Shown piece after piece: positions 13,380 to 25,310 of a stretch of 64,000 bases of DNA. Within the stretch, counting starts at the first letter, position 1. Each line of letters starts with the position of its first letter. Both the position numbers and the translations under genes were made by a program. The stretch spans positions 5,494 through 69,493 of the forward strand of contig JAJYYF010000019.1 of NCBI GenBank assembly GCA_021801225.1, given 5' to 3'. The notes under the pieces are model-generated. The model did no database searches. It had not been told where the DNA came from and worked only from the letters and a program-made list of their open reading frames with translations. Origin of the DNA: Candidatus Micrarchaeota archaeon (GTDB taxonomy: Archaea > Micrarchaeota > Micrarchaeia > Micrarchaeales > CABMGC01).

Positions 13380-14432
13380 CTATACGCTTCTTAGATAATG
13401 TTTAGGAAATACCATTTTTGCAGACCATTCAAAGTTTTTATCAAGGATACCTGTGCTTTTGCACAGATTGAAAGTCTCTTCGGCAAATTCAAGATGTTCC
13501 TTTAGGTTTTTATTCTTCACAAATGACGTATGCATGTCCTTTTCTCCAATTTCAAATACATGCATAACAGCCCAGACAAACTGTTCATATCTTATTAACG
13601 GGGTAAATATTTGTATTCTCTGCTTTAGGGTTTTATCTTTTCTTATTTTGAGATAAGTTTTCAGAAATAGTCTCCTTTGTTCATCTGAAAATTTGATTCT
13701 GCCAAAGGCTTCAAAAATCTTTGTGATTTCAGCTGCCGGATCTCCTAGACCTACGCTCTCCCAATCGATTAATACAAGCTGGTTATTATTTACTAAGACG
13801 TTCTGTTCACAAATATCTCCATGTATTAAGCAACGCTTATTTTGGTATTTTGGAGTTTCAAGAGAAGCTTTGATTTTACTAAGCGTATTATCCATAATTC
13901 TGATAAATTTATCATTTCTCTCAAAATACTTAGCCCTTTTAATTTTGATATACTCTATATTGTTTTTTATACCTGTTAACCAAGAAGCGTATGTAGGTCT
14001 CTCTATATTTAGCTTCAATTTATTCACATGCAGCAGGTGGAGCTCAGCAACAATCACTGCCAATTTTTCGATTGTTCTCCGATTCAATTTCTTTAGGTGC
14101 TTATTAAGTGTATGGCCGGGCAGGTATTCTAAAATAATAAATGTTTCATTTATGACTTTTCTTGAATCGTCCAAAAATAATGCTCGTGGTGCAATTTTTA
14201 AGTGCTCTATTGTTTTCAGAGCGACAAATTCCTCCCTAGACTTATTTGGCATCTTCGGATCCATATTGATCCTGATTACAAATTTCTTTTTGTTCAATAC
14301 AGCAATGTAATTTAGATTACTTTCACCAAACTCCAGAGATTTTAATTTAATGCTTTTTAGTTTACCCTCTAAACCTAATAATTTAAGATCAAGTCCAAGC
14401 AAGTACTTTTTCAGTTTTGTTTCTAAATTCAT
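13380..14432 (-). CDS. Aminoglycoside/choline-kinase-like phosphotransferase (APH fold)
   Basis: Catalytic loop LIHGDICEQNVLV and IDWES (Brenner-type HxDxxxxN ... D). I place the start at the internal ATG because the upstream 26 codons read through the casposon scar, target duplication and TIR repeats. Confidence 0.7.
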   Translation of the reverse strand: MNLETKLKKYLLGLDLKLLGLEGKLKSIKLKSLEFGESNLNYIAVLNKKKFVIRINMDPKMPNKSREEFVALKTIEHLKIAPRALFLDDSRKVINETFIILEYLPGHTLNKHLKKLNRRTIEKLAVIVAELHLLHVNKLKLNIERPTYASWLTGIKNNIEYIKIKRAKYFERNDKFIRIMDNTLSKIKASLETPKYQNKRCLIHGDICEQNVLVNNNQLVLIDWESVGLGDPAAEITKIFEAFGRIKFSDEQRRLFLKTYLKIRKDKTLKQRIQIFTPLIRYEQFVWAVMHVFEIGEKDMHTSFVKNKNLKEHLEFAEETFNLCKSTGILDKNFEWSAKMVFPKHYLRSV

Positions 14433-14443
14433 AGACTTCCAGT

Positions 14444-14456
14444 TTGTATAAATGCC
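14444..14456. repeat. Third, slightly diverged copy of the casposon target sequence (TTGTATAAATGCC)
   Basis: 12 of 13 identical to the two target-duplication copies at 14475-14487 and 25227-25239. Confidence 0.7.
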
Positions 14457-14474
14457 GGGGTTATATATAACCCC
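14457..14474. repeat. 18-bp perfect palindrome GGGGTTATATATAACCCC, formed by the left TIR tip fused to the right TIR tip (putative casposon scar)
   Basis: The first 13 nt equal the left TIR start (14488-14500). The last 14 nt equal the right TIR end (TTATATATAACCCC). Confidence 0.7.
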
Positions 14475-14487
14475 TTGTATAAATGCT
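14475..14487. repeat. Target-site duplication, left copy (TTGTATAAATGCT; 14 bp if the preceding C is included)
   Basis: Exact direct repeat of 25227-25239, immediately abutting the left TIR. Confidence 0.85.
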
Positions 14488-14540
14488 GGGGTTATATATA
14501 GAAGCCTCAAATGTCCCCCTTTTCTAACATAGTTTTAGCA
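14488..14540. repeat. Casposon left terminal inverted repeat
   Basis: GGGGTTATATATAGAAGCCTCAAATGTCCCCCTTTTCTAACATAGTTTTAGCA matches the reverse complement of 25173-25226, with 3 substitutions and a 1-nt G-run difference. Confidence 0.9.
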
Positions 14541-14705
14541 TGGAAACGGTCGCTGTCGCCCAGATTCATGAATGGGAAGCAAAGAAAAAATCCCTTTTGT
14601 GAAAATGTTTATAAATTTTGAAGATCCCCAAAATGAAGTTAAGGACTTTTGTCCAAAATCTCTATTACAAGAAAGTATTTAAATAAGTATTCCCTAATCT
14701 TTTTT

Positions 14706-15392
14706 ATGATAGCTGAAAAAGAGATAACAAAAACATTCCTAAAAGCAATTTCTGAAACTTTTAAAGCATATAATGAAAGGGGAGCAAGAAGCAATAAAAA
14801 ACTTATACCAATTCATAAATGGTTTGCTAAATATTTGGAAAATAATCTTGGAAATGGATACTCTGTGATGAGTTTAGGTAATGGTGGAGAAGCAAATATA
14901 AACGGAAAATATTACCCTAAAAATTTGGATATAACTGTTTTGAAAAGTGGGAAGATTTTAACTACCATTAGTTTTAAATTTGTAACCTCTAATTATAAAC
15001 AAAATGCCAACAATTACTTTGAGAATTTATTAGGCGAAACTGCAAATATTCGTAGAGTTAATGTTGGTTTTGCACATTTTTTAGTTCTTAGAGCTAAAAC
15101 CCCATATTATGATAAGAATAAAGGTAATTTAAGAGGAAAAACCATAAAAATAGAGACTATAAACGACCACGATTTATCAAAATATGTCAAATTATTCCAA
15201 GATAATGACTTCCCTCATAAACCAGATGTTTTAGGAATATCTATATTAGATTTTAATGAAAATGGAAAACCATCAATCACAAATTTGGAAAGATTTGGTA
15301 TATCAAAATCTAATTCAGATATTTTAAATAAAGAATTAGGGTTGAAAAAGTTTTTAGATAGATTTATTGCTCTTTGTGAATTAAAGAATTAA
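14706..15392 (+). CDS. Putative type II restriction endonuclease (casposon cargo)
   Basis: It converges on the adjacent N6-adenine methyltransferase and overlaps its 3' end by 29 nt. Possible PD-(D/E)xK-like core (NLDITV...ISFKFV). I recognise no family match. Confidence 0.4.
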   Translation: MIAEKEITKTFLKAISETFKAYNERGARSNKKLIPIHKWFAKYLENNLGNGYSVMSLGNGGEANINGKYYPKNLDITVLKSGKILTTISFKFVTSNYKQNANNYFENLLGETANIRRVNVGFAHFLVLRAKTPYYDKNKGNLRGKTIKIETINDHDLSKYVKLFQDNDFPHKPDVLGISILDFNENGKPSITNLERFGISKSNSDILNKELGLKKFLDRFIALCELKN

Positions 15393-16890
15393 TAATAATT
15401 TTTTGATGGTTTAATTCATTTGTAGGATAATTTTTTATTTGTTTGCTTGTTACTGATTTGTAACCCCCAGAAAAATCTTTCCCTGTAATTTGAATATACT
15501 TATAAAAATCTTCTGAACTCAAAATATTGGTAATAATATCCCAATTTATTTCTTTTTTCTTCTTAATAATAAATATTCCAGAATAAACAAAAATGTCTTC
15601 TTTTAACTTATAGAAGTTTATTCTATGATTAACTAATGTGCTTAATACGATCTTTTCATTATAAGAAGTTTGGATCCCTTGACTTCTCCCAAATTCATAC
15701 CAAGAAGCATCCTCATCAATATCTCTTTTTAGTAATTCTTCTTTATTTTCTAATAAATAGTTGTAAGCATTTGAATAATATTTTTTTAATTCTTCTTCAG
15801 GAATTGGAATAAAACGATTAGCTTGTCTTTTGTATGGAAATAAAATATGTTTAATTTCTTTTTCGTTTCCTTTGTAAGTAGAACCTTTAACAACTTTATA
15901 CAATATTTTCTTTTCAATCCACTTATTATTAAATAAAACTAAAGTATCTTTTTCTTTAGTTACTTCCCCAATATAGATTTTATCCCTCAATGTTGCAAAA
16001 CCATATTGAACATCAAAAAAATCTGAAACTTTTTTATTTGTGTTTGAATAAAGATTTTTCAAAAAATCCATTTCTTTATTTCCAGAAAAAGACCAATCCT
16101 TTATTTCTAAGTTATTATAGTTAACCTTATTCACTTCTTGTATTTTATTATTCATTAATTCCTGATAAACAAAATAATCTTTTTTTTCAAAAAAGTTTAT
16201 TATGGTTATGGCAGTGTAGGTGGAAAAATTTTTGAAAACCTTATTTGCTTTAAAATCAGTTAATCTTTTTACTACTCTTTTTTCTTTTAAATACTTTCTA
16301 AATTCAACATAAGAAGAATTATGCAGGTAACTATTTGGAGTGATATACCCCAAAATTCCTTTTTCATTTAATAATTTAAATCCTAATTCAAAAAAAGAAA
16401 TATAAATATCTATTGTTCCATTTGAAAAGATAAACTCTTTCTTGAGTAAATCTCTTGTTTTTTTATCTAAATTATGTATTCTTATATATGGCGGATTTCC
16501 TACGACAAAATCAAAAAAATTCATATATTCTTTATATTTTGTTAAGGTATTATCTTTAAATATTTTCCAATTAATATTTAGTTTTCTGTCTAATTTATTT
16601 TCAATTAAATGATTTAAATTAGATAAACATTTATTAAATTCTATCTCATCAATTTCTATGCCATAAACATAATCCTCTAAATACTCTTTTATCTTCTCTT
16701 TGGGATATTTTTTATTTAGTAGAGTATCAATAATTCTTGAAACTATTATTTTTAGAAAAGCACCATCACCACAAGCAGGGTCTATTATCTTTTTATTTAT
16801 TAAATTATTATTAGAGAAACCAGAAGAATCTAATATTTCTTCTACTATCCAGTCTGGAGTAAATACTTGTCCTAATGTCTTATGTTTCAT
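15364..16890 (-). CDS. N6-adenine DNA methyltransferase, gamma class (TaqI/Eco57I-like), casposon cargo
   Basis: Motif X-like GQVFTP, motif I IIDPACGDGAFL, motif IV VGNPPYIRI, then a long target-recognition region. I place the start at internal Met66. The ORF continues upstream to 17085 through a fragment resembling a different methyltransferase class. Confidence 0.8.
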   Translation of the reverse strand: MKHKTLGQVFTPDWIVEEILDSSGFSNNNLINKKIIDPACGDGAFLKIIVSRIIDTLLNKKYPKEKIKEYLEDYVYGIEIDEIEFNKCLSNLNHLIENKLDRKLNINWKIFKDNTLTKYKEYMNFFDFVVGNPPYIRIHNLDKKTRDLLKKEFIFSNGTIDIYISFFELGFKLLNEKGILGYITPNSYLHNSSYVEFRKYLKEKRVVKRLTDFKANKVFKNFSTYTAITIINFFEKKDYFVYQELMNNKIQEVNKVNYNNLEIKDWSFSGNKEMDFLKNLYSNTNKKVSDFFDVQYGFATLRDKIYIGEVTKEKDTLVLFNNKWIEKKILYKVVKGSTYKGNEKEIKHILFPYKRQANRFIPIPEEELKKYYSNAYNYLLENKEELLKRDIDEDASWYEFGRSQGIQTSYNEKIVLSTLVNHRINFYKLKEDIFVYSGIFIIKKKKEINWDIITNILSSEDFYKYIQITGKDFSGGYKSVTSKQIKNYPTNELNHQKIIINSLIHKEQ

Positions 16891-17239
16891 TGTATCCCCT
16901 ATTTTATTTTCTTGTTTAGGTTTATCCTGATAAGCAGGAGAAGTTATTATAGTATCTATTTGTGCATTATTTTCTTTGAAATAGTGAAATTTATCTATTG
17001 CATCTCCAATCAATATTATCGGGTTGTTATCTTTATTAAATTGTATATCTTTTGAAAGTTTATTTTTAGGCATAAATATCACCATTTATTGCATACAGCA
17101 TCCGCTAACAAATACGTTCTTACTTTACTACCTTCACCCAGAAACAGTCGGCTATTTGTATAGCGTTGCCATAACGCAATTTTTGTAGTTATTTTATGTA
17201 AATAAAAGTTTATATACTTTAGTATCATTCAATCAGCTA

Positions 17240-17902
17240 TTATTTTTGTAATTTCGTTCCGCACTTCGGGCAATAGTTTCCTCTAGAAGGATTTTGTTTA
17301 CCGCACTTCGGGCATTTTACTTTATTGGGTTTTTTGTTGTTTCCCGACTGCCATTTCAAATTATATAAATCAATGGCTCTTGGTATTGTAAATTTAGTAT
17401 CGAGTGAGTGAAATTTGCCATCCATATACAAATTCTGCATCAATCGCATAAAATTGATATAGCCTTCTGCCGTTTTGTCGATCTTGCCAATAATCTTATC
17501 ATTTTTGTAAGTCTTACTATAATGTTTTATTATACCATTATCCCACATTACAAAGACATCTGGCTTTAATAGATGCATGACTTTTGTAGCCCCAACTTGT
17601 TTTATCCCAGAATTTGATATCGTATTATAGATTCTCATTATCCTTTCTACTGTTTTTTTATCGTCTAATCTAATGTCCTTGAAAGACTTTTTATTGAAGA
17701 AAACAAAGTCCTCTTTCTCTAAATTAGCCAAGTCTCTTTTGAAGTTCTTTAAATTGAAAGATGTTAATATGAATCTGAAATAAGCAAAATTCCATGTTGA
17801 AAGAAGCAAAATTATTGATTCGTACTCGTGTCCTTCTTTGTAGAGGTCTAATGCCCACCTGTATACTTCCTCTCTAATCTCGTCTTTTTTAGTATTTGAC
17901 AT
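17240..17902 (-). CDS. Hypothetical protein with a C-terminal double zinc ribbon, last gene of the cas1 operon
   Basis: CPKCGKQ...YCPKCGTK at the C-terminus. The start overlaps the cas1 stop by 14 nt. Confidence 0.5.
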   Translation of the reverse strand: MSNTKKDEIREEVYRWALDLYKEGHEYESIILLLSTWNFAYFRFILTSFNLKNFKRDLANLEKEDFVFFNKKSFKDIRLDDKKTVERIMRIYNTISNSGIKQVGATKVMHLLKPDVFVMWDNGIIKHYSKTYKNDKIIGKIDKTAEGYINFMRLMQNLYMDGKFHSLDTKFTIPRAIDLYNLKWQSGNNKKPNKVKCPKCGKQNPSRGNYCPKCGTKLQK

Positions 17903-19100
17903 TTAATTTACCCATAACCTTGCCATAAACCTTGATTCTCTTGCCTTCTCTTACGTGTTTCTGCATATACCACAGAGTTGACTTATTTATACTTAACTTC
18001 TTGCGGTCTTGTAGTGTTAGGCTCAGTACCTTACTGCGAATATCTGTGTTGTCCTCTCGCTTTATCTTGAACTCAGGTACGTCGAATTGAAGCTTGCTGG
18101 ACTTACCAATTATGTAGTTAGCCAGCAACCTAATGTTTTCATATAAGATATTCTGGTAGCTGTAGTATTTGCCATTGTAGAACGCTCTGGCATTGAAGTT
18201 CAGTCTTATCTTCTCGATTAGTGCTTTTGCTGTACTCTCTCTAAGCCTTATGTTGTAGTTCTCCGTTACGATAAAGTCCGCCTTCTTCAGCTTCTTTTCC
18301 TCTAGTAGCTGTATCACCGATAGGTCTACCAGCCACCTATAAAGCTCTTGAACGTCATACACAAGTGAGGCTCTGCTATTCGATAGCTCATGCAAGAAGC
18401 TTATCGATGGATCAAGACCTATGGAATTGAGGTCTTTTCTCACTTCTGATTCCAGCACCGCATAGCCGTAGTTCAGCAAGGCGTTAATCTCATCAGAGGC
18501 ATTGCGGTTATGCGAGTTCAGAACGTTGTTTCTGCTAACGAACTTGAACTCTGGACATAACTTATTGAACGCCTTTAGAATCTGCGACCAATAAATATCG
18601 GCGATTCTGCCTTCATACATCATAAGGTTGCGGTAATCATAAGTAGTCTTCAATTTGAACATGGATTCTTTATTCGACTCTGAACTTATTGTATTGGTAT
18701 CAATCTCTCTATAGTACTTTGATAGCTCGGTTAGCAGATTTATCGACTGCTTAACCTTCTCTTTGACTATCGGATAAGCAACGCTGTACCGTCTTTTGCT
18801 ATCCTGATATGCCTCATACTGCCTTAGCCTCAGTTTACTTGATAACGTTTCTTTAGGCAACGTAACGCTTAGCAGATTGCCGTTCCAGTTGAGCATTGTG
18901 ATAGGGATATTGTGCTTTACCAGCCATCGCATAGCCTCAAAGCTTATGCTACCAGTATGCCCGTCTACTATTACAGAATCGTGCTTTATCTGGTGCGGAT
19001 AGTATTCGTATCGCTCATTGTCCAGCTTGTTCTGAATGATTAGCCGACGCTTGTCTACGCTTATGTTCGTTCCGAATCCAGAGATCAGTAGTGGGTTCAT
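17889..19100 (-). CDS. cas1: Cas1-family integrase (casposase)
   Basis: Cas1 signature LNYGYAVLESEV...IGLDPSISFLHE...SLVYDVQELYRWLVD, with conserved E/H/D-E positions. There is a C-terminal basic HTH-like tail. The ATG overlaps the upstream stop (ATGA). Confidence 0.9.
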   Translation of the reverse strand: MNPLLISGFGTNISVDKRRLIIQNKLDNERYEYYPHQIKHDSVIVDGHTGSISFEAMRWLVKHNIPITMLNWNGNLLSVTLPKETLSSKLRLRQYEAYQDSKRRYSVAYPIVKEKVKQSINLLTELSKYYREIDTNTISSESNKESMFKLKTTYDYRNLMMYEGRIADIYWSQILKAFNKLCPEFKFVSRNNVLNSHNRNASDEINALLNYGYAVLESEVRKDLNSIGLDPSISFLHELSNSRASLVYDVQELYRWLVDLSVIQLLEEKKLKKADFIVTENYNIRLRESTAKALIEKIRLNFNARAFYNGKYYSYQNILYENIRLLANYIIGKSSKLQFDVPEFKIKREDNTDIRSKVLSLTLQDRKKLSINKSTLWYMQKHVREGKRIKVYGKVMGKLNVKY

Positions 19101-20260
19101 TTTTTCTTACCTCTCATCTCGTTTTGAATCTTGAAGAGTTTACTCTTATCAGGTCTGTACCTATTTTCTGTTTCATATTCTCGCAATCTATTTCTGAAAG
19201 CAATGTCATTATGATTCAATATTCTGATTATGGTAACGTAATCATAAAGAGGTACATAAAAGCCATTGCCAGCTTTAATAACCAATTTTTTAATCAGTTT
19301 TTTACTGGAAAGTGGATCGTTACCAGATTTAAATATTTTAGTTACTTCATTCAGTGTTTCAATGTCGAGCCAATTTGCCCATAATCCGAAAGATAGTAAA
19401 GTAGAAACAAATTTATCCTTCTTAGCTAACGCTTCTAATTTTTTTTTATATTGTTCATCATCAATTAAATCAGCACTATCTAAATAAGATTCCAAAAGTG
19501 GTAATTTAGGATATCCATAACCGTTAAATTCAAGTTCCGAATCGGTAAGAAAATCTGCGCTAATTTTTATATCGTCCATAAATCTCTGTATGTTTTTTAC
19601 AAAATTAATATATTCGTTCCATTCTACTCCGAAAGCAAAAACCGATTTGGCATCTTTAGGTATTTTATCTAAATTAGTTTTAATTAATTCGTTTATAACC
19701 TCTTTAATAACTACCTTCTCTGTGTTGAATTGAATTTTCACAGTATTTAGATTGTTTTCAAGTACACTTGGATATGATATGTTATGCGAAGAGATATTTG
19801 GTAGTGGTTTGGGATTTTCATTAAATAATGTGTTTGACAAACCACCAACGTAACTGCTACCTTTATCCTTGAGTTCTAAGAGTTCATACATGAGTTGCCA
19901 AATGCCTTTGTAATAAGCTTGCCCTTTTTCAGTAAGTATATAAACTGGCTTCATGCCTTTTGTAAACTTTTTAGCAGGTTTTATTTCTGCTCCTTTCTTT
20001 CCTATCATAACTTCTTCTTTTTCAAGAATGATCTCTTTCTTTACGATTATTTTTTCTATAGTATCCTCTGTTTCTAACTTCTGTAAAATTTTTGTTAATC
20101 CAGCAGGAGAAAGTAAGGTTTTTGTTTGTAACTCTGTAAAGGTCGCTCCGTCTATTATTCTTCCGTCAGGGTTGAGTTTCTTACTATCGTGTATTATTGT
20201 TAGAATCTTATCTCTGTTCTCGTTACTTATCCTCTTTTGTCTCTGGTATCTATCGTGCAT
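19097..20260 (-). CDS. Winged-helix DNA-binding protein with a large uncharacterised C-terminal domain, first gene of the cas1 operon
   Basis: N-terminal wHTH-like segment TFTELQTKTLLSPAGLTKILQKLETEDTIEKI. Translationally coupled to cas1. Confidence 0.5.
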   Translation of the reverse strand: MHDRYQRQKRISNENRDKILTIIHDSKKLNPDGRIIDGATFTELQTKTLLSPAGLTKILQKLETEDTIEKIIVKKEIILEKEEVMIGKKGAEIKPAKKFTKGMKPVYILTEKGQAYYKGIWQLMYELLELKDKGSSYVGGLSNTLFNENPKPLPNISSHNISYPSVLENNLNTVKIQFNTEKVVIKEVINELIKTNLDKIPKDAKSVFAFGVEWNEYINFVKNIQRFMDDIKISADFLTDSELEFNGYGYPKLPLLESYLDSADLIDDEQYKKKLEALAKKDKFVSTLLSFGLWANWLDIETLNEVTKIFKSGNDPLSSKKLIKKLVIKAGNGFYVPLYDYVTIIRILNHNDIAFRNRLREYETENRYRPDKSKLFKIQNEMRGKKK

Positions 20261-20389
20261 ATAACATCATATAGTTACTTTACTCAACTAAGTATATAAA
20301 TATGCGCTAATGCCCGATAGTAGTGTGGTAAACATCGCCGTTGCGCCAAAACTGCGTTTACTTTGTACTAATATAATGAGGATGATTTG
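20261..20389. promoter_or_regulatory. Divergent promoter region of the two casposon operons
   Basis: A 129-bp gap between divergent genes. TATA-like AGTATATAAA lies at 20291-20300, about 30-40 nt upstream of the minus-strand ATG. AATATAAT and a GAGGA Shine-Dalgarno-like sequence precede the plus-strand ATG at 20390. Confidence 0.3.
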
Positions 20390-21052
20390 ATGAGATTCAG
20401 CAAAAGGTACAATAGATTTGAAGACTGGCTATCCACTCAGGATAGGCATACTAGCTACATAAGGCGAATAACACGCCTTCATTCGCTCTATCCCAGAGCG
20501 AGCCTTGATCAGCTAAGGGGTCATGCCAGAGCAGAGGCAAAGAGGCTCAGCAAAGGCACGCCTAAGCCCGTATCCGCTAGATCATGGAATACGCTCAGCC
20601 CAAGAGAGCAGTTGGCTAGAGAGCGTGCCTTAGAGGTGCTGAGCCATGCCAGAAGGTCTGGGCAGTCGCTATCACATCTAAGCAGAGAGTATAAAATATC
20701 GGTCAAAACAGTTCTTAGAGCCACTCAAGGCTTCGAGAAGGCAAAGGGTCGCTGGAAACCTAAGAAGATAGATCATATCTCACGCATAATGGCGATAAAC
20801 GAGAACGACAAGGAGCTATTCATAGAGATAACAGATTCTCGCTATGCGACGCTTATCGGCAAGTACCACAGCGCAGTAAAGGAATACCTCAATACTGGCA
20901 ATATCGATGTTTTAGCTGAGTTTGAAGGCAAGAAGGTCAAGGATAGCTCAGGTAAGTGGCATACCCTAGAAACCGATCCATCAGCCATACGTGAGATTAA
21001 TGCTCGGAGAGAAGAGCCAGAGTTCTACGATATTTATCAGGTGAATGTATGA
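20390..21052 (+). CDS. HTH-containing protein, unknown function (casposon core, markedly higher G+C)
   Basis: HTH-like segment LSREYKISVKTVLRATQG. It is the first gene of a translationally coupled chain; its stop overlaps the next ATG. Confidence 0.5.
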   Translation: MRFSKRYNRFEDWLSTQDRHTSYIRRITRLHSLYPRASLDQLRGHARAEAKRLSKGTPKPVSARSWNTLSPREQLARERALEVLSHARRSGQSLSHLSREYKISVKTVLRATQGFEKAKGRWKPKKIDHISRIMAINENDKELFIEITDSRYATLIGKYHSAVKEYLNTGNIDVLAEFEGKKVKDSSGKWHTLETDPSAIREINARREEPEFYDIYQVNV

Positions 21053-21387
21053 TACAATGTCCATATTGTGAAAGCAGTCTTGGCAGTGAAGGATCGTACA
21101 GGGTTCATAAGCACCGATTCCATAAGGGTCTGGACTACAGGCAACCAGTAGTTACACATGAAGAGGCTCGGCAACCAGCTACAGAACCAATAGTAGCTGA
21201 GCATGAACCAGTTTTGCATGAAGCACCAGAGCCACCGCAAGAGCATCCAGAACCGCAAGAACCAGAACATCGTGGTCGTAGCGCAGTAGAGCGAGGTAAA
21301 GGTGGCGACGATGGTCTTGCTATACTTGGTGGTATTGGAGCTATTGCGTTTGTGATTATCCTAGCACTGCTAGGCAAGAAACAGTGA
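21049..21387 (+). CDS. C2H2 zinc-finger protein with a Pro/Glu-rich linker and a C-terminal transmembrane anchor
   Basis: CPYC-x12-HKHRFH, then PE-rich HEPVLHEAPEPPQEHPEPQEPEH, then the hydrophobic tail LAILGGIGAIAFVIILALLG followed by KKQ. Confidence 0.5.
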   Translation: MIQCPYCESSLGSEGSYRVHKHRFHKGLDYRQPVVTHEEARQPATEPIVAEHEPVLHEAPEPPQEHPEPQEPEHRGRSAVERGKGGDDGLAILGGIGAIAFVIILALLGKKQ

Positions 21388-22000
21388 TTATCATGGATAA
21401 CATCAACGACAAGATAACGGATAACAACGATAAAAAGATGTTTCAAAGCGATAAAAATAGCGTTAAAATAGATGTAAAGATAATTGATAAGATAACGGAT
21501 AAAATCAACGACAAGATAATGGATAACAACGATAAAAAGATGTATAAAAACGATAAAGATACGGATAAAAAGCAGAAATTGTTACCCGATATTATCGGCT
21601 ATTTCTTTGATTCAGCAGAAAAGAACAATCTGGATAACAAAAAAGTGAACAAGGTCGTAAAAGACGTACAATACCTCTTCAAAAAAGACCCTAAACATAA
21701 GGATATCAAGTGTTTTATATGCGAGAACGATTAGAACTGCACCACATAGCTGGCAGAAACAACTCAGAAATGACTGTTTCGCTATGCGTTTCTTGTCATA
21801 ATGAGATAACAAGGCATCAGAACACATGGGATATACGCTGGACTAATCAAAACAACACAGAAACACTGCAAAACGCCTTCATAATGCAAGGGATCAGGGA
21901 GCTACTTTTGCTCAAGTACGTCAAAACATGCGATTACACATACTACTGTTTGGCTGATTCGCTGTGCTATGGTATAGGAAAGTCATTGGTGAGCGAATGA
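21384..22000 (+). pseudogene. HNH endonuclease split by a -1 frameshift at ~21725-21734, with a D/K/N-rich repetitive N-terminal extension
   Basis: Frame A ends ...KCFICEND-stop. Frame B continues ERLELHHIAGRNNSEMTVSLCVSCHNEI. Joined, they give a canonical CxxC...HH...N...CxxCH HNH motif. Confidence 0.65.
21402..21543 (+). repeat. Two 40-bp direct repeats (21402-21441 and 21504-21543, 1 mismatch) spaced 102 bp apart, inside the HNH N-terminal extension
   Basis: ATCAACGACAAGATAA(C/T)GGATAACAACGATAAAAAGATGT occurs twice, encoding INDKI(T/M)DNNDKKM. Confidence 0.85.
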
Positions 22001-24642
22001 ACATAGCGTTACGATGTTATATTGATAACAAACTCAATGCACAAAACGATAATGTTATCCATTATAACGATAATCTGGTGCTTGTTTTTGATACAGAAAC
22101 AACGATAGACCAATATCAGAATCTAAAGTTTGGTTCTTATGGTATATGGGAGAATGGTAAACTTGATGAGTTTGGATTGTTTTATGATAACAATTTGGAT
22201 AACAACGACGCCAAAACGTTATCCGATTATGCAGACAAAAAGCACATAAAACTGATAACAAAAAGCCAATTTTTAGACATGTTTATCGATTATGTCTATA
22301 AAAGAAGGGCTATCTGTGTGGGTTTTAACTTGCCTTTTGATATATCACGCATAGCAATAGACTACAGTATATCGAGAAAGGATAACAACGCCTTCTCTTT
22401 CAAGCTGTTTGATAACGTCTATATGCCCAGAATTATCATAAAACACATCGATTCTAAGCGGTCATTGATAAACTTCTCTACGCCTTACTCTAAAAACTTC
22501 AAGAAAGTAACCAGATACAGAGGCACATTCGTTGATTTGAGGACGTTATCTTTTGCGTTAACCAACGATAACCACTCACTTGAAAGTGCTTGTGAACTGT
22601 TCAACGTTGAGCATAAGAAGTTGAAGACTGAGGAACACGGCAAGATAACGCCAGAATACATACAGTACAACATAAACGACGTTTTTGCTTCTTATGACTT
22701 GTTTCTCGCATTGAAAAGCGAGTTTTCAAAGTATAAACTGCCCACGCCATTGAAAAAACTGTTATCCCCAGCATCTATAGGCAAGGAATACTTCAAGGAG
22801 ATGGGCATCAAACCCTTCTTAGAACTGAATCCAACGTTTCCCAAGTACATGCTAGGCTGGATAATGACTACCTATTACGGCGGTAGAACTGAGGTGCATA
22901 TACGTAAAACGCCAGTAAAGGTATCATATATCGACTTTACGTCTATGTATCCATCGCAATTCGTGTTACTCGGCTTGTGGGATTACGTTATCGCAGATAA
23001 CATAGACGTTACAGAAGATAACAAATTCGCTGAATTACTGGATAACATACAGCTAAACGACCTTACAAACAAGGAGCTATGGAAAACGCTCAATGGAATT
23101 GCTCTAGTAGACATGGATAACGATATTTTGCCACTCAGAGCCAAATACAACAGCAAGATAGCGTATAACATAGGGTTGAACTACGCAAAAGGCAAGGCAC
23201 TTTGGTACACTTATCCAGATATCATAGCGTCAAAACTGCTCACTGGAAAGACACTGAAGGTTATCAAGGCTTACAGATTCGTTCCTAAAGGCAAACAGAG
23301 TAATCTCAGCACGATAAACCTATTCGGCAAGAGCATAGAACCAGAGAAAGATGACTTTATCCGCTATTTAATCGAGCATCGGTTAGAGATAAAGCAGAAA
23401 TTGAAGCAAGACACGGATAACAAAGACCTCAAGAAAGAGGACTTTATCGCCAAAATAATCGCAAATGCAACATCTTACGGCATTTTTGTTGAGGTAAATA
23501 CGCAAAACGAGAGAGTAAACGCTGAGATATACGGGATAAGTCCGTTTACATGCGCAGTAAACAAAAAGGAACAGTTTGGCAGAGCGTTTAACCCTATCCT
23601 TGCGACTATGCTAACATCAGGATCAAGGCTTATACTCGCAATGGTAGAGGCATACGTGAAAGAAAACAAGGGTTATTTTGCATATTGCGACACCGATGCC
23701 TTATTCGTTAATCCAGAGCTGGTAAGCAAGATTCAAGCATTCTTCAAGCCTCTAAATCCTTACACTAATCATGTTGAGATGTTCAAAGTTGAGAATGATG
23801 AGGATGGTAAACCTCTTGATAATGTCTGGTTTTATGGTATATCTGCAAAGCGGTACTGTTTGTACAACATAGAGAATGACAAAATCGACATCCTAAAGCA
23901 CTCTTCTCATGGTCTAGGTGGTTTGATAGGCATAAGCGAGGACGAAGTAAAGGATATTTGGAAAGACATCTTAGACCATCACTACAATAGGCTATCAAAA
24001 GAGGTAATGGAACGCAAATATTCAAACAAATTCGTGATGGGCAAGCTCGCATTGACATCACCCTTTGTCTTACAGCGTTTTAGACACACAAACAAGGATA
24101 AGAGGCTAAAACCGTTCAACTTTGTTATCGTTGGGATAGGGCATAGGTTAGACCCTTCAACTAAAGAACAGATAATACCACTATTGGCTTACACCAATGA
24201 CACAGATATCGTGCCGTTTAGCCCATTTACTGATTACAAAACAGGCAAAGAGTACAAAGATAACACAAGGTTCTATTGGAAACCACTACCAGAGTTCCTT
24301 TTTGCTTATGCAGACCACAACGACAACAAGTACGATGGCGAGATTGGAGAATTGAAAAGAAAACGGCTCTTTATCAATGACATCGAACACATTGGCAAAG
24401 AGTCGAACAATCTAGAGGAAAGCGAAGTTATCGGTGTTTCAGATAACGATTACGTTGTTTACGATAACAAAACGGGGCAAAAGATAGCAGATGTTATCAG
24501 AAATATGACAACAAAGGACGCTAGACGTATTGGATTATCAAAAAGGCACTTATTTAGGTTGAAGAAACAAATAAAAGAAGGAAAGAAGATAGTGTTAAAG
24601 AAGAAAACTGTGAATAAGTTGTCTAAAGTTGGTGTAAAATGA
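21997..24642 (+). CDS. polB: Family B DNA polymerase (casposon PolB)
   Basis: ExoI LVFDTETT, ExoII YNINDV, motif A IDFTSMYPS, motif B KIIANATSYG, motif C YCDTDALF, and a KxY motif (SAKRYCLY). The ATG overlaps the upstream stop (ATGA). Confidence 0.9.
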   Translation: MNIALRCYIDNKLNAQNDNVIHYNDNLVLVFDTETTIDQYQNLKFGSYGIWENGKLDEFGLFYDNNLDNNDAKTLSDYADKKHIKLITKSQFLDMFIDYVYKRRAICVGFNLPFDISRIAIDYSISRKDNNAFSFKLFDNVYMPRIIIKHIDSKRSLINFSTPYSKNFKKVTRYRGTFVDLRTLSFALTNDNHSLESACELFNVEHKKLKTEEHGKITPEYIQYNINDVFASYDLFLALKSEFSKYKLPTPLKKLLSPASIGKEYFKEMGIKPFLELNPTFPKYMLGWIMTTYYGGRTEVHIRKTPVKVSYIDFTSMYPSQFVLLGLWDYVIADNIDVTEDNKFAELLDNIQLNDLTNKELWKTLNGIALVDMDNDILPLRAKYNSKIAYNIGLNYAKGKALWYTYPDIIASKLLTGKTLKVIKAYRFVPKGKQSNLSTINLFGKSIEPEKDDFIRYLIEHRLEIKQKLKQDTDNKDLKKEDFIAKIIANATSYGIFVEVNTQNERVNAEIYGISPFTCAVNKKEQFGRAFNPILATMLTSGSRLILAMVEAYVKENKGYFAYCDTDALFVNPELVSKIQAFFKPLNPYTNHVEMFKVENDEDGKPLDNVWFYGISAKRYCLYNIENDKIDILKHSSHGLGGLIGISEDEVKDIWKDILDHHYNRLSKEVMERKYSNKFVMGKLALTSPFVLQRFRHTNKDKRLKPFNFVIVGIGHRLDPSTKEQIIPLLAYTNDTDIVPFSPFTDYKTGKEYKDNTRFYWKPLPEFLFAYADHNDNKYDGEIGELKRKRLFINDIEHIGKESNNLEESEVIGVSDNDYVVYDNKTGQKIADVIRNMTTKDARRIGLSKRHLFRLKKQIKEGKKIVLKKKTVNKLSKVGVK

Positions 24643-25133
24643 GCGATCATTCAGATAGATGTTATGTTCCTTTAACAAAAGAGGACTTGATCGAATTAGC
24701 ATTTAGAGCCATTGAAGTTTTAAAAGAAAAAGGAAAACCTATAAATGATTGTAAATGTATGGTTATATCACAAAATACTGCTAGTCATTATTTATCTCCA
24801 GATAAAAAAATAGGTTTACATGATTTCGATATAATAGCTTTTTTTACCAATCTAAAAAAAGAAACCCACCAACAACCCATAAAAGGAGACTCTAAGCTAA
24901 CAAAGTTTGGAGATTATTGCAAACAATGTCCAAAATCTGATTATATAGCGAGAAAGATGGATATATTTTGTAAGAATATAAAACTTTTAGAAAATATGAA
25001 TCTAGAAGACTCAGTTAAAGAGTATTTTAAAAATTCAGGAACAAAGTGGATTAAAGAAGTAGGAAAAAGACCAATAGTTTGTATAGTCCCAGAAAAACTC
25101 TGTGGAAAAACTTTATGGTCTCCAGACAATTAA
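24639..25133 (+). CDS. Hypothetical Cys-rich protein translationally coupled to polB
   Basis: ATGA overlap with the polB stop. I recognise no family. Confidence 0.4.
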   Translation: MSDHSDRCYVPLTKEDLIELAFRAIEVLKEKGKPINDCKCMVISQNTASHYLSPDKKIGLHDFDIIAFFTNLKKETHQQPIKGDSKLTKFGDYCKQCPKSDYIARKMDIFCKNIKLLENMNLEDSVKEYFKNSGTKWIKEVGKRPIVCIVPEKLCGKTLWSPDN

Positions 25134-25172
25134 ACATTTTACTACACTTTCTTTCTGCCAACTAATCTTTGG

Positions 25173-25226
25173 TGCTAAAACTATGTTAGAGAAGGGGGAC
25201 ATTTGAGGCTCTTATATATAACCCCC
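25173..25226. repeat. Casposon right terminal inverted repeat
   Basis: TGCTAAAACTATGTTAGAGAAGGGGGACATTTGAGGCTCTTATATATAACCCCC is the reverse complement of the left TIR. Confidence 0.9.
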
Positions 25227-25239
25227 TTGTATAAATGCT
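25227..25239. repeat. Target-site duplication, right copy (TTGTATAAATGCT)
   Basis: Exact repeat of 14475-14487. Its last 4 nt are the 3' end of the tRNA-Glu gene. Confidence 0.85.
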
Positions 25240-25310
25240 CCCACCGGGATTTGAACCCGGGTTGCGGGATTGAAAGCCCCGCGTCCTTGGCCGTGCTAGA
25301 CGATAGGAGC
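25236..25310 (-). tRNA. tRNA-Glu (anticodon UUC), 75 nt, CCA not encoded
   Basis: Hand-folded cloverleaf: acceptor GCUCCUA/UGGGAGC, D stem GUCU/GGAC, anticodon stem CGGGG/UCCCG with loop CUUUCAA, T arm CCGGG-UUCAAAU-CCCGG, discriminator A. Confidence 0.9.

What the first reader, a model, noticed from the sequence alone, without database searches (positions are those of the whole stretch)
14443..14487. Casposon scar: 18-bp palindrome of fused TIR tips flanked by a third copy of the target
Directly left of the intact element the sequence reads TTGTATAAATGCC | GGGGTTATATATAACCCC | TTGTATAAATGCT | left TIR. The 18-mer is a perfect palindrome. Its first 13 nt equal the left TIR start, and its last 14 nt equal the right TIR end. 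The target therefore occurs three times: 14444-14456, 14475-14487 and 25227-25239.

Inference: an earlier casposon occupied the same tRNA-Glu site, giving tandem integration. It was then deleted almost cleanly. The TIR tip contains TTATATATAA, which is its own reverse complement. That core is therefore present in direct orientation at both ends of the element and can mediate slippage or recombination, removing the interior and leaving GGGG-TTATATATAA-CCCC. This would be a sequence-level record of repeated site-specific casposon integration and loss, and a possible built-in excision route.
Basis: partly seen in the sequence, partly recalled or inferred. Interest (0 to 1): 0.7.

Follow-up and report, generated by a model that had tools for sequence, protein, structure and literature searches.

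The report
Casposon footprint beside a tRNA gene
Next to an intact casposon (a self-replicating transposon related to the CRISPR integrase) lies an 18-base palindrome made of the transposon's two fused tips between two copies of its target; the identical palindrome, with its own target duplications, sits at three other tRNA genes in other archaea, so it is a recurrent natural trace of casposon insertion and loss.

Summary
The window reads target copy | GGGGTTATATATAACCCC | target copy | 10,738-bp casposon | target copy + tRNA-Glu.

The palindrome is not native flank.
- Two sister species have tRNA-Glu, then 20 nt, then the ATG of the kinase gene, with no palindrome and no duplication.
- The identical 18-mer sits 10 nt after three other tRNA genes in other archaea (Glu-CUC, Gln-CUG, an intron-containing tRNA). 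Each copy has its own 12-14-bp duplication.
- All eight related casposons fetched begin GGGGTTATATATA and end TATATATAACCCC.

The scar predates the resident element. Casposon-free strains of the same Micrarchaeota species carry it. Adding the casposon with a 14-bp duplication to one such allele reproduces the window exactly. The two deletions predicted from the 27/28-nt repeats around the casposon both exist as alleles.

Best reading: a remnant of an earlier casposase insertion whose interior was lost by recombination at the TATATATA core of the tips. Direct, spacer-like insertion of tip-derived oligonucleotides is not excluded.

Casposon tandem arrays and solo TIRs are known. I found no report of a tip-to-tip footprint that keeps both target copies. 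I class it as a new variant of a known kind, of moderately high interest.

The parts
14443..14456 (-). Outermost and oldest target copy. In tRNA orientation it reads GGCATTTATACAAA. Its last 10 nt plus the next 10 nt (TTTATACAAACTGGAAGTCT) form the native 20-nt spacer before the ATG of the kinase gene.
   Evidence: The 20-nt spacing matches the unoccupied sites of sister species. It differs from the other two copies at positions 1 and 14 of the 14-nt frame.
14457..14474 (.). 18-bp perfect palindrome GGGGTTATATATAACCCC: the left TIR tip (13 nt) and the right TIR tip (13-14 nt) overlapping on TATATATA.
   Evidence: Present in casposon-free alleles. Absent from sister species. Identical at three other tRNA genes, each with its own duplication.
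14474..14487 (-). Middle target copy, 14 bp, CTTGTATAAATGCT. This is the duplication made when the resident casposon inserted. Its first base is shared with the palindrome.
   Evidence: Identical to 25226-25239. Simulated insertion with this 14-bp duplication reproduces the window over 10,833 nt.
14488..25225 (.). Resident casposon, 10,738 bp.
   Evidence: 53-nt TIRs at 94% complementarity. Cas1. PolB motifs. Present or absent among strains with an identical flanking kinase protein.
14488..14540 (+). tRNA-distal TIR, GGGGTTATATATAGAAGCC...
   Evidence: pair I1.
25173..25225 (-). tRNA-proximal TIR, read inward GGGGTTATATATAAGAGCC...
   Evidence: pair I1.
17889..19100 (-). Casposase (Cas1 homologue), 403 aa.
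   Evidence: Pfam Cas_Cas1, E 2.3e-60. Best solved structure is 6OPM, the M. mazei casposase, E 5.7e-80 over residues 2-400.
21964..24642 (+). Family B DNA polymerase-like protein, 892 aa.
   Evidence: ExoI, motif A, motif B, motif C (YCDTD) and KxY were found by pattern. There is no HMM or PDB sequence hit.
21710..22000 (+). Small ORF with an HNH-like motif (HH...N...CxxCH...H).
   Evidence: Read by eye from the translation. No HMM support.
25226..25239 (-). tRNA-proximal target copy, 14 bp: the last 4 nt of the tRNA (AGCA) plus 10 nt.
25236..25310 (-). tRNA-Glu(UUC). Its 3' part is the presumed leader-like recognition region for the casposase.
   Evidence: ARAGORN. The leader role is inferred from the A. 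boonei work (PMC5137440).
14461..14487 (+). 27-nt direct repeat (tip core + CCCC + target). Its partner is at 25212-25239 (28 nt, one extra C). The pair brackets the resident casposon.
   Evidence: A crossover in the core gives the 5-G allele. A crossover in the target gives the 4-G allele. Both match observed contigs exactly.
25212..25239 (+). Partner copy of the 27/28-nt direct repeat.

Best explanation
The 18-bp palindrome is a casposon remnant: two TIR tips fused at their shared TATATATA core, still flanked by the 14-bp target duplication that a casposase made at the 3' end of tRNA-Glu.

Proposed history:
1. A casposon of this family inserted at the unoccupied site (tRNA...AGCA, then TTTATACAAA...) in an ancestor of this Micrarchaeota species (inferred).
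2. Its interior was lost by slippage or recombination between the two tips. The core TTATATATA(A) is its own reverse complement, so it is a direct repeat at both ends, and TIR pairing would bring the two copies together (inferred).
3. The scar persisted and is carried by every allele of this species that was fetched. Its outer target copy drifted at two positions (shown).
4. The present casposon later inserted into the tRNA-proximal copy with a 14-nt stagger that took in the first G of the scar (shown by exact reconstruction).
5. The resident element is now bracketed by 27/28-nt direct repeats (tip plus target). Both predicted deletion products occur in the population (products shown, process inferred).
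For: The insert is not native:
- Sister species have tRNA-Glu + 20 nt + ATG with no palindrome and no duplication. In this species the outer copy plus the following bases is also exactly 20 nt.
- A related species also has an unoccupied tRNA-Gln site where L024 has the scar.

The geometry is that of a casposase insertion:
- Full elements have 14-bp duplications and GGGG...CCCC ends in L042, L044, L045, L048 and the window.
- The scars have the same geometry. L024 has a perfect 14/14 duplication. L018 has 13/14. L026 has 11 of 12 compared positions. Each lies at a tRNA 3' end.

Any family member would give the same product. The 13-nt tip is invariant at every casposon end seen in these loci, while the inner TIR differs.

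Tandem occupation and decay of the outer element are seen directly:
- L048 has two casposon ends sharing one duplication.
- L092 and L094 have a 26-nt TIR fragment just outside an intact end.
- Two casposon variants use this very site.

Order of events: the 4-G scar-only allele (called E4 in the full report) plus the casposon equals the window over 10,833 nt.

Core-mediated loss: deleting between the core copies gives the 5-G allele (E5), found in three contigs. Deleting between the target copies gives the 4-G allele.

Literature:
- Tandem arrays, solo TIRs and tRNA targets overlapping 4-7 nt are known for casposons (PMC4779613, PMC4046053).
- The authors of PMC10359463 report that the Krupovic model predicted persisting duplications, possibly with footprints.
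Against: - No locus shows a full-length element sitting between the same two target copies that flank a scar, so the full-length precursor is inferred.
- Only exact 18-mers were searched, so the apparent uniformity of the product is partly ascertainment. Shorter or longer (TA)n variants were not scanned in the genome and metagenome collections.
- The 5-G and 4-G alleles could interconvert by a one-base slip in the G run.
- The only experimental study of casposon excision, in M. mazei, found scarless single target sites (PMC10359463).
- The predicted double scar (tip-to-tip deletion of the resident element) was not found in any of the loci fetched.
Confidence: 0.55

Rival explanations
1. Direct, spacer-like insertion. 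The casposase inserted two 3'-terminal tip fragments (...TTATATATAACCCC-3') into the two target strands. The fragments paired through the self-complementary 10-nt core, leaving 4-nt 3' overhangs. Gap filling and flap trimming then produced target-18 bp-target. No full-length casposon was ever there.
For: - Casposases insert single-stranded end fragments as short as 5-6 nt. Only the terminal TCCCC is required by the A. boonei enzyme (PMC6614799).
- The M. mazei enzyme works best on ends with 2-7-nt 3' overhangs (PMC6977970).
- Both 3' ends of the palindrome read ...TATAACCCC.
- The product is identical in four lineages, with canonical 14-bp duplications.
- Three of the four scars have no casposon beside them.
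Against: - A 10-bp A/T-only duplex is very unstable, and the 14-mer does not fold on its own.
- No arrays of several scars were seen, and each MAG with a scar in the genome scan has exactly one exact copy.
- No source of such fragments is known.
- Full elements, tandem pairs and a partial remnant are all observed in this family, so deletion needs no new biochemistry.
Confidence: 0.22
2. Casposase-driven excision footprint. During cut-out, the non-transferred strand is cleaved several nucleotides inside each end. The tip stubs left on the two flanks anneal through the TA core and are sealed, keeping both target copies.
For: - According to PMC10359463, the Krupovic model predicted persisting duplications, possibly separated by footprints.
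- Footprints made of terminal transposon nucleotides between the duplicated target are the rule for Tc1/mariner elements (own knowledge).
- The product geometry fits.
Against: - M. mazei excision products were single empty sites without footprints or TIR remains (PMC10359463).
- No cleavage inside casposon ends has been reported in the papers read.
- The final sequence cannot be told apart from a slippage product.
Confidence: 0.13
3. By-product of gap repair at the moment a full casposon inserted. The polymerase filling the target gap ran into the tip, switched template at the palindromic core and copied tip and target again, creating target-palindrome-target-casposon in one step. Scar-only alleles then arose by later loss of the casposon.
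For: - The scar lies directly outside the intact element in the window, on the side away from the tRNA.
- L092 has a 31-nt repeat of TIR end plus 5 nt of flank directly outside an intact end, which looks like a local duplication.
Against: - The outer target copy differs from the two inner, identical copies at two positions, so it is older than the resident insertion.
- The other full elements examined have no scar.
- The two TIR fragments in L092 are of different subtypes, so they are not a simple copy of each other.
Confidence: 0.04
4. Native flanking hairpin (for example a terminator after the tRNA) that the TIR merely resembles, or an assembly artefact.
For: - The palindrome is present at uninterrupted tRNA-Glu loci of strains of the same species.
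- It can form a 7-bp hairpin of -5 kcal/mol.
Against: - It is absent from sister species with the same gene order and the same 20-nt spacer.
- The same 18-mer has different direct repeats at other tRNA genes in other lineages.
- Chance or terminator hits elsewhere show no flanking direct repeat; many have inverted, stem-extending flanks, and none lies next to a tRNA.
- The longest exact repeat shared by the two junctions is 17 nt, too short to mislead the assemblers. The alleles also recur in independent ENA, NCBI, JGI and Logan assemblies.
Confidence: 0.02

Closest known systems
Solo TIRs of casposons in Methanosarcina mazei (Krupovic et al. 2016, PMC4779613)
   Same: Both are casposon-derived remnants left at a preferred target site in strains that lack the full element. 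Both are polymorphic within a species and have been discussed as CRISPR-like intermediates.
   Different: [quoted passage not shown] Here only the 13-nt tips of both ends remain. They are fused into a perfect 18-bp palindrome, both target copies are kept, and the same product recurs in four lineages.
Tandem casposon arrays in Methanosarcina and leader-proximal reinsertion (PMC4779613, PMC5137440)
   Same: The newer element lies next to the tRNA (leader) side, the older one lies distal, and they are separated by a shared duplication. L048 shows the full tandem state at the homologous tRNA-Glu.
   Different: In the window the older unit is reduced to 18 bp.
Tn10 'nearly precise excision' remnant (Ross, Swan and Kleckner 1979; Foster et al. 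1981; own knowledge, references listed in the bibliography seen)
   Same: The deletion occurs between short direct repeats lying inside the inverted ends. It leaves a short palindromic remnant still flanked by the target duplication. The process depends on the host and is stimulated by the inverted repeats.
   Different: Tn10 is a bacterial DDE transposon. Its remnant is 50 bp and its repeats are 24 bp. Here the repeat is the 8-10-bp self-complementary core of a Cas1-dependent archaeal element, and the mechanism is inferred, not shown.
Scarless casposon excision in M. mazei in vivo (PMC10359463)
   Same: Loss of the element by an event between the two target copies. In this population that corresponds to the 4-G allele.
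   Different: That study saw no footprints or TIR remains. Here a footprint that keeps both target copies is fixed in a species and recurs elsewhere.
CRISPR repeat-spacer-repeat unit next to a leader
   Same: A Cas1-family integrase duplicates a short target next to a leader-like sequence. A short insert sits between the two copies, and new insertions go to the leader-proximal copy.
   Different: The repeat is 14 bp. The insert derives from the element itself. There is no evidence of transcription into guide RNAs, no Cas2 and no effector genes. It is not a CRISPR array.

Membership tests
Casposon (family-2-like), resident element 14488-25225 | Encodes a Cas1-family casposase | tested here: met
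   Pfam Cas_Cas1, E 2.3e-60. Best solved structure is the M. mazei casposase 6OPM, E 5.7e-80, covering residues 2-400 including the C-terminal region.
Casposon (family-2-like), resident element 14488-25225 | Encodes a family B DNA polymerase | tested here: inconclusive
   No Pfam, NCBIfam or PDB sequence hit. ExoI, motif A (DFTSMYPS), motif B (KIIANATSYG), motif C (YCDTD) and KxY are present in the right order.
Casposon (family-2-like), resident element 14488-25225 | Terminal inverted repeats | tested here: met
   53 nt, 94% complementary. The 3' end ...ACCCC resembles the A. boonei TCCCC and the M. mazei TATATCCC.
Casposon (family-2-like), resident element 14488-25225 | Target site duplication of about 14-15 bp | tested here: met
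   14 bp, CTTGTATAAATGCT, identical at both ends.
Casposon (family-2-like), resident element 14488-25225 | Insertion at the 3' end of a tRNA gene, overlapping a few nucleotides, with the gene left intact | tested here: met
   The duplication overlaps the last 4 nt of tRNA-Glu(UUC). PMC4046053 reports an overlap of 4-7 nt for euryarchaeal casposons.
Casposon (family-2-like), resident element 14488-25225 | Mobility (presence/absence polymorphism) | tested here: met
   Strains with an identical flanking kinase protein have or lack the element. The same terminal gene is also found at a second genomic context.
Transposon remnant / footprint (the 18-mer) | Consists only of terminal sequences of the element | tested here: met
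   The first 13 nt equal the tip of every family member, and the last 13 nt are its complement.
Transposon remnant / footprint (the 18-mer) | Flanked by the element's characteristic target duplication | tested here: met
   14/14 in L024, 13/14 in L018, 12/14 here, and 11 of 12 compared positions in L026.
Transposon remnant / footprint (the 18-mer) | Absent from unoccupied orthologous sites | tested here: met
   L049-L054 for tRNA-Glu. L077 for tRNA-Gln.
Transposon remnant / footprint (the 18-mer) | Derived from a full-length copy at that same site | not testable with these tools
   No allele with a full element between the two outer copies was found. This needs broader strain sampling or experiment.
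Solo TIR (as defined for M. mazei) | A sequence matching one of the casposon TIRs, standing alone at the target | tested here: not met
   Only 13 of the 53 TIR nucleotides remain, from both ends, fused. The 26-nt fragment in L092 is closer to a solo TIR.
MITE-like non-autonomous mini-casposon | Multiple dispersed copies per genome | tested here: not met
   There is one exact copy per MAG in the species-representative genome scan and one in the 64-kb window. Variant copies were not searched.
CRISPR array | Several repeats separated by foreign-derived spacers, with cas effector genes or crRNA | tested here: not met
   There are three 13-14-bp copies. One insert is the casposon itself and the other is its own tips. 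No Cas2 or effector genes were found among the element's ORFs scanned.

The most novel reading that the evidence does not exclude
The 18-mer was never a full casposon. It is a natural spacer-like product: the casposase inserted two self-annealing 3'-tip fragments (a 10-bp core duplex with 4-nt CCCC overhangs) next to a tRNA 'leader', giving repeat-18 bp-repeat. That would be a living example of the step from transposon-end insertion to short-insert acquisition that is postulated for the origin of CRISPR arrays.
Probability: 0.2. Interest if true: 0.9.

Novelty: new variant of a known kind. Interest (0 to 1): 0.62.

Why it matters
How casposons leave a site is an open question. The only in vivo study, in M. 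mazei, saw scarless sites.

This finding gives a natural, recurrent footprint with a defined structure: 14-bp copy, 18-bp fused tips, 14-bp copy. It also comes with a population in which unoccupied-like, scarred and occupied alleles coexist, with two casposon variants among the occupied ones. That makes gain and loss directly measurable by amplicon or long-read sequencing, and it provides precise substrates for biochemistry.

The scar also lengthens the direct repeat around any later casposon of the family from 14 to 27/28 nt. This may make later insertions easier to lose.

Finally, leader - repeat - short insert - repeat, with new insertions on the leader side, is the closest natural look-alike so far of a minimal CRISPR unit made by a casposase.

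Tried and rejected
- **Native flank or terminator hairpin:** rejected by the sister-species sites and by the different duplications at other tRNA genes.
- **Assembly shortcut across the casposon:** rejected. The longest exact repeat shared by the two junctions is 17 nt, and the alleles recur in independent assemblies.
- **Promoter (TATA box) role for the outer target copy:** dropped. TTTATA lies only 15-20 nt before the ATG, too close for the usual archaeal spacing. The conserved 20-nt tRNA-to-ATG spacing suggests co-transcription instead.
- **Viral-contig scans** for the 18-mer and for 16- and 20-bp (TA)n variants: 0, 21 and 0 hits. The 21 have no flanking direct repeat and no adjacent tRNA; many are plain stem-loops with inverted flanks or a T-run.
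- **Strain variants of the L024 scar site:** none. The flanking protein occurs on a single contig.
- **Synteny between L018 (scar) and L042 (full casposon), both Marsarchaeota tRNA-Glu(CUC):** only the tRNA and the tip match.
- **HMM and PDB searches for the polymerase, the HNH-like ORF and the cargo ORFs:** empty.
- **Comparison of the ORFs next to the casposon ends in L048 and L008 with the window polymerase:** no similarity.
- **Double scar predicted by tip-to-tip deletion of the resident element:** not present in any fetched locus.

Full report
**1. What is in the window**

On the + strand the sequence reads:
- 14444-14456 TTGTATAAATGCC
- 14457-14474 GGGGTTATATATAACCCC
- 14475-14487 TTGTATAAATGCT
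- 14488 onward, GGGGTTATATATAGAAGCC..., the left TIR
- ...GGCTCTTATATATAACCCC, ending at 25225, the right TIR
- C at 25226
- 25227-25239 TTGTATAAATGCT
- the rest of tRNA-Glu(UUC), which lies at 25236-25310 on the minus strand

The 18-mer is a perfect palindrome. Its first 13 nt equal the left tip and its last 14 nt equal the right end. The TIRs are 53 nt and 94% complementary. The target 12-mer and the tip 13-mer occur far more often than shuffles predict, and only at these junctions.

The real duplication is 14 bp, CTTGTATAAATGCT, at 14474-14487 and 25226-25239.

**2. The 10,738-bp element is a casposon**

- It encodes a Cas1 homologue (Pfam E 2.3e-60). The best solved relative is the Methanosarcina mazei casposase 6OPM, at E 5.7e-80 over the whole length.
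- It encodes an 892-aa protein with the exonuclease and polymerase motifs of family B polymerases. This protein has no HMM or PDB hit.
- It has a small HNH-like ORF and an Eco57I/MmeI-type methylase.
- The duplication covers the last 4 nt of the tRNA plus 10 nt. This matches the pattern described for euryarchaeal casposons (PMC4046053).

**3. Strain variants of the same locus**

Exact-protein look-ups with the two flanking host genes returned many contigs of the same species. It is a Candidatus Micrarchaeota, by the record title of L021. In tRNA orientation the alleles are as follows.

| Allele | Sequence after the tRNA | Loci |
|---|---|---|
| E4 | AGCATTTATACAA GGGG TTATATATAA CCCC GGCATTTATACAAA ctggaagtct ATG | L002, L005 |
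| E5 | the same, with five G | L011, L014, L016 |
| third type | the tRNA 3' half carries three substitutions and is followed by CGTACTTATT, then the palindrome and GGCATTTATACAAA | L003, L021, L055 |
| casposon A + scar | as in the window | window, L001, L004, L006 |
| casposon B | a different casposon beside the tRNA | L008, L009 |
| other | unrelated sequence after the tRNA | L010 |

So the palindrome and the extra target copy are present at uninterrupted loci.

**4. It is nevertheless an insert**

Sister species have kinase orthologues 82% and 77% identical to the one here. Their arrangement is tRNA-Glu...AGCA, then 20 nt, then the ATG of the kinase gene. They have no palindrome and no duplication. 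In this species the outer copy plus the following bases (TTTATACAAACTGGAAGTCT) is also exactly 20 nt. The palindrome plus one target copy is therefore a 31/32-bp insertion into a conserved arrangement.

**5. The same 18-mer elsewhere**

Exact scans returned 6 loci from one genome per prokaryotic species and 19 loci from metagenome contigs. The total is about what chance gives (my estimate is about 9 for the genome collection). Most hits are bacterial or eukaryote-like and have no flanking direct repeat.

Four groups are different:
- This species (L021).
- A Marsarchaeota MAG (L018), tRNA-Glu(CUC): AGCAAATAATATTT | palindrome | AGCAAATAATATTG.
- L024, tRNA-Gln(CUG): GCTATATTACCTAG | palindrome | GCTATATTACCTAG.
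- L026, an intron-containing tRNA whose anticodon reads GAT by eye: CCCACCAAGCAACT | palindrome | CACCAAGCAATT.

In every case the repeat is the last 4 nt of the tRNA plus about 10 nt. That is the geometry of full casposon insertions. A species related to the L024 host has an unoccupied tRNA-Gln site.

The 21 hits to a 16-bp variant in viral contigs act as a negative control. None has a flanking direct repeat or an adjacent tRNA, and many are plain stem-loops with inverted flanks or a T-run.

**6. The tip belongs to the casposon family**

Cas1 homologues at up to 92% identity are numerous. They include one at 89% in a Marsarchaeota MAG and one at 88% in another Micrarchaeota MAG.

In the loci fetched around them, every element begins GGGGTTATATATA and ends TATATATAACCCC, although the inner TIR differs. 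All have perfect 14-bp duplications, at tRNA-Glu(CUC), tRNA-Glu(UUC), tRNA-Thr and a non-tRNA flank.

Fusing any two such tips in register on TATATATA gives exactly the 18-mer.

Two further loci show tandem occupation and decay:
- L048 shows two casposon ends abutting one shared duplication at the homologous tRNA-Glu. This is the two-element state.
- L092 and L094 carry the same terminal gene as the window casposon at another site. They have a 26-nt TIR fragment plus 5 nt of flank repeated just outside the intact end. This is a second kind of remnant, in the position expected for an older tandem partner.

**7. Order of events**

Inserting the 10,738-bp element into allele E4 with the 14-bp duplication CTTGTATAAATGCT reproduces the window exactly over 10,833 nt. 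The last base of that duplication, in tRNA orientation, is the first G of the scar. This explains why there are five G at the tRNA-side junction and four at the scar. The scar is therefore older than the resident element, in line with the two mismatches in the outer copy.

The resident element is bracketed by TTATATATAACCCC(C)TTGTATAAATGCT, at 14461-14487 and 25212-25239. A crossover in the core yields E5. A crossover in the target yields E4. Both match observed contigs base for base. E5 could also arise by a one-base slip, so this is support and not proof.

**8. Mechanism**

Shown:
- The insert has casposase geometry.
- It is absent from unoccupied sites.
- It recurs with independent duplications.
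- Its sequence is the family's conserved tips.
- It predates the resident element.
- New insertion went to the tRNA-proximal copy, as predicted from the leader dependence of the A. boonei enzyme (PMC5137440).

Inferred: how a unit of only two tips arose.

- **Best reading (about 0.55).** A full casposon lost its interior by slippage or recombination between the self-complementary cores of its two tips, helped by TIR pairing. This is analogous to 'nearly precise excision' of Tn10 (own knowledge; references seen).
- **Variant (about 0.13).** A transposase-made excision footprint, as the Krupovic model is reported to have predicted (PMC10359463).
- **Main rival (about 0.2).** Direct insertion of tip fragments. 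Casposases insert 5-6-nt single-stranded ends. The A. boonei enzyme needs only the terminal TCCCC. The M. mazei enzyme works best on ends with 2-7-nt 3' overhangs (PMC6614799, PMC6977970). Two ...TTATATATAACCCC-3' fragments can pair through the core, and filling in would give the 18-mer.

The final sequence does not discriminate among these.

**9. Comparison with what is known**

Tandem arrays and solo TIRs were described in Methanosarcina (PMC4779613). Scarless excision was shown in M. mazei (PMC10359463). In the literature I could search, no tip-to-tip footprint that keeps both target copies has been reported, and none in Micrarchaeota or Marsarchaeota.

It is not a solo TIR, not a MITE-like family (one copy per MAG) and not a CRISPR array. 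It does mimic the layout leader - repeat - short insert - repeat.

**10. Verdict**

This is a real feature and a new variant of a known kind (casposon remnants). Interest is moderately high, because it turns casposon loss and the origin of short Cas1-made inserts into testable questions.

Noticed in passing
L003:1313-1415, L021:2103-2205, L055:3874-3976 (same locus as window 14443-25310): A third scar-bearing allele. The tRNA-Glu 3' half carries three substitutions, one pair of them compensatory, and is identical to the sister-species tRNA in L049. It is followed by CGTACTTATT in place of TTTATACAA(G), then the palindrome and the usual outer copy. The left flank is therefore not a duplication of the right one. 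This may be a patch imported with a casposon from another lineage by homologous recombination and then trimmed at the scar.
   Followed up: partly
L092:2060-2130 and L094 (same sequence): The window casposon's terminal 164-aa gene occurs, with identical sequence, at a second site next to GatD, with no tRNA within 1.5 kb. Outside the intact end lies a 31-nt repeat: a 26-nt TIR end of the other subtype plus CGCAC. The flank starts CGCA, like M. mazei targets. It looks like a partial solo TIR of an older tandem element.
   Followed up: partly
L008:1-1010, L009:1-390: A different casposon (variant B) occupies the same tRNA-Glu site in other samples. Its inner TIR is GAAGCCTCAAATGTTACC... and its cargo is unrelated. 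Its far junction was not available.
   Followed up: partly
L010:1-270: In one MAG the tRNA-Glu 3' end is followed by unrelated sequence (tgtccaataaactg...) carrying an ORF start. This is a third kind of occupant or a rearrangement. The contig ends after 270 nt.
   Followed up: no
window 18000-24000 versus the rest; P0003 / L042; L077-L084: The Cas1-PolB core of the casposon has 37-41% G+C, against 26-32% for most of the host DNA and for the methylase cargo at 14.5-18 kb. Its Cas1 is 89% identical to one in a Marsarchaeota MAG. Marsarchaeota contigs come from the same samples as this Micrarchaeota (ERZ27237183, JGI 3300039716). This suggests recent exchange of casposons between the two lineages, or a binning error.
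   Followed up: partly
window 21964-24642: The 892-aa polymerase has clear family B motifs but no hit in Pfam, NCBIfam or PDB sequences even at permissive thresholds. It is a very divergent PolB.
   Followed up: partly
window 21390-21570: Two 79-nt direct repeats (86% identical, 102 nt apart) lie inside a small D/K/N-rich ORF (21384-21734) of the casposon, with further DKI(T/N)D-coding repeats nearby.
   Followed up: no
window 14410-14456; L049:3981-4003; L051:1485-1491: The kinase gene starts exactly 20 nt after the tRNA-Glu in this species (inferred unoccupied state) and in two sister species. The two genes are probably co-transcribed. A 10.7-kb casposon between them would cut the kinase gene off from that promoter.
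   Followed up: no
window 15364-17085 and 14706-15392: The casposon cargo includes an Eco57I/MmeI-type methylase with a TaqI-like specificity domain, and an adjacent 228-aa ORF with no known family. This may be a restriction-modification or defence module.
   Followed up: no
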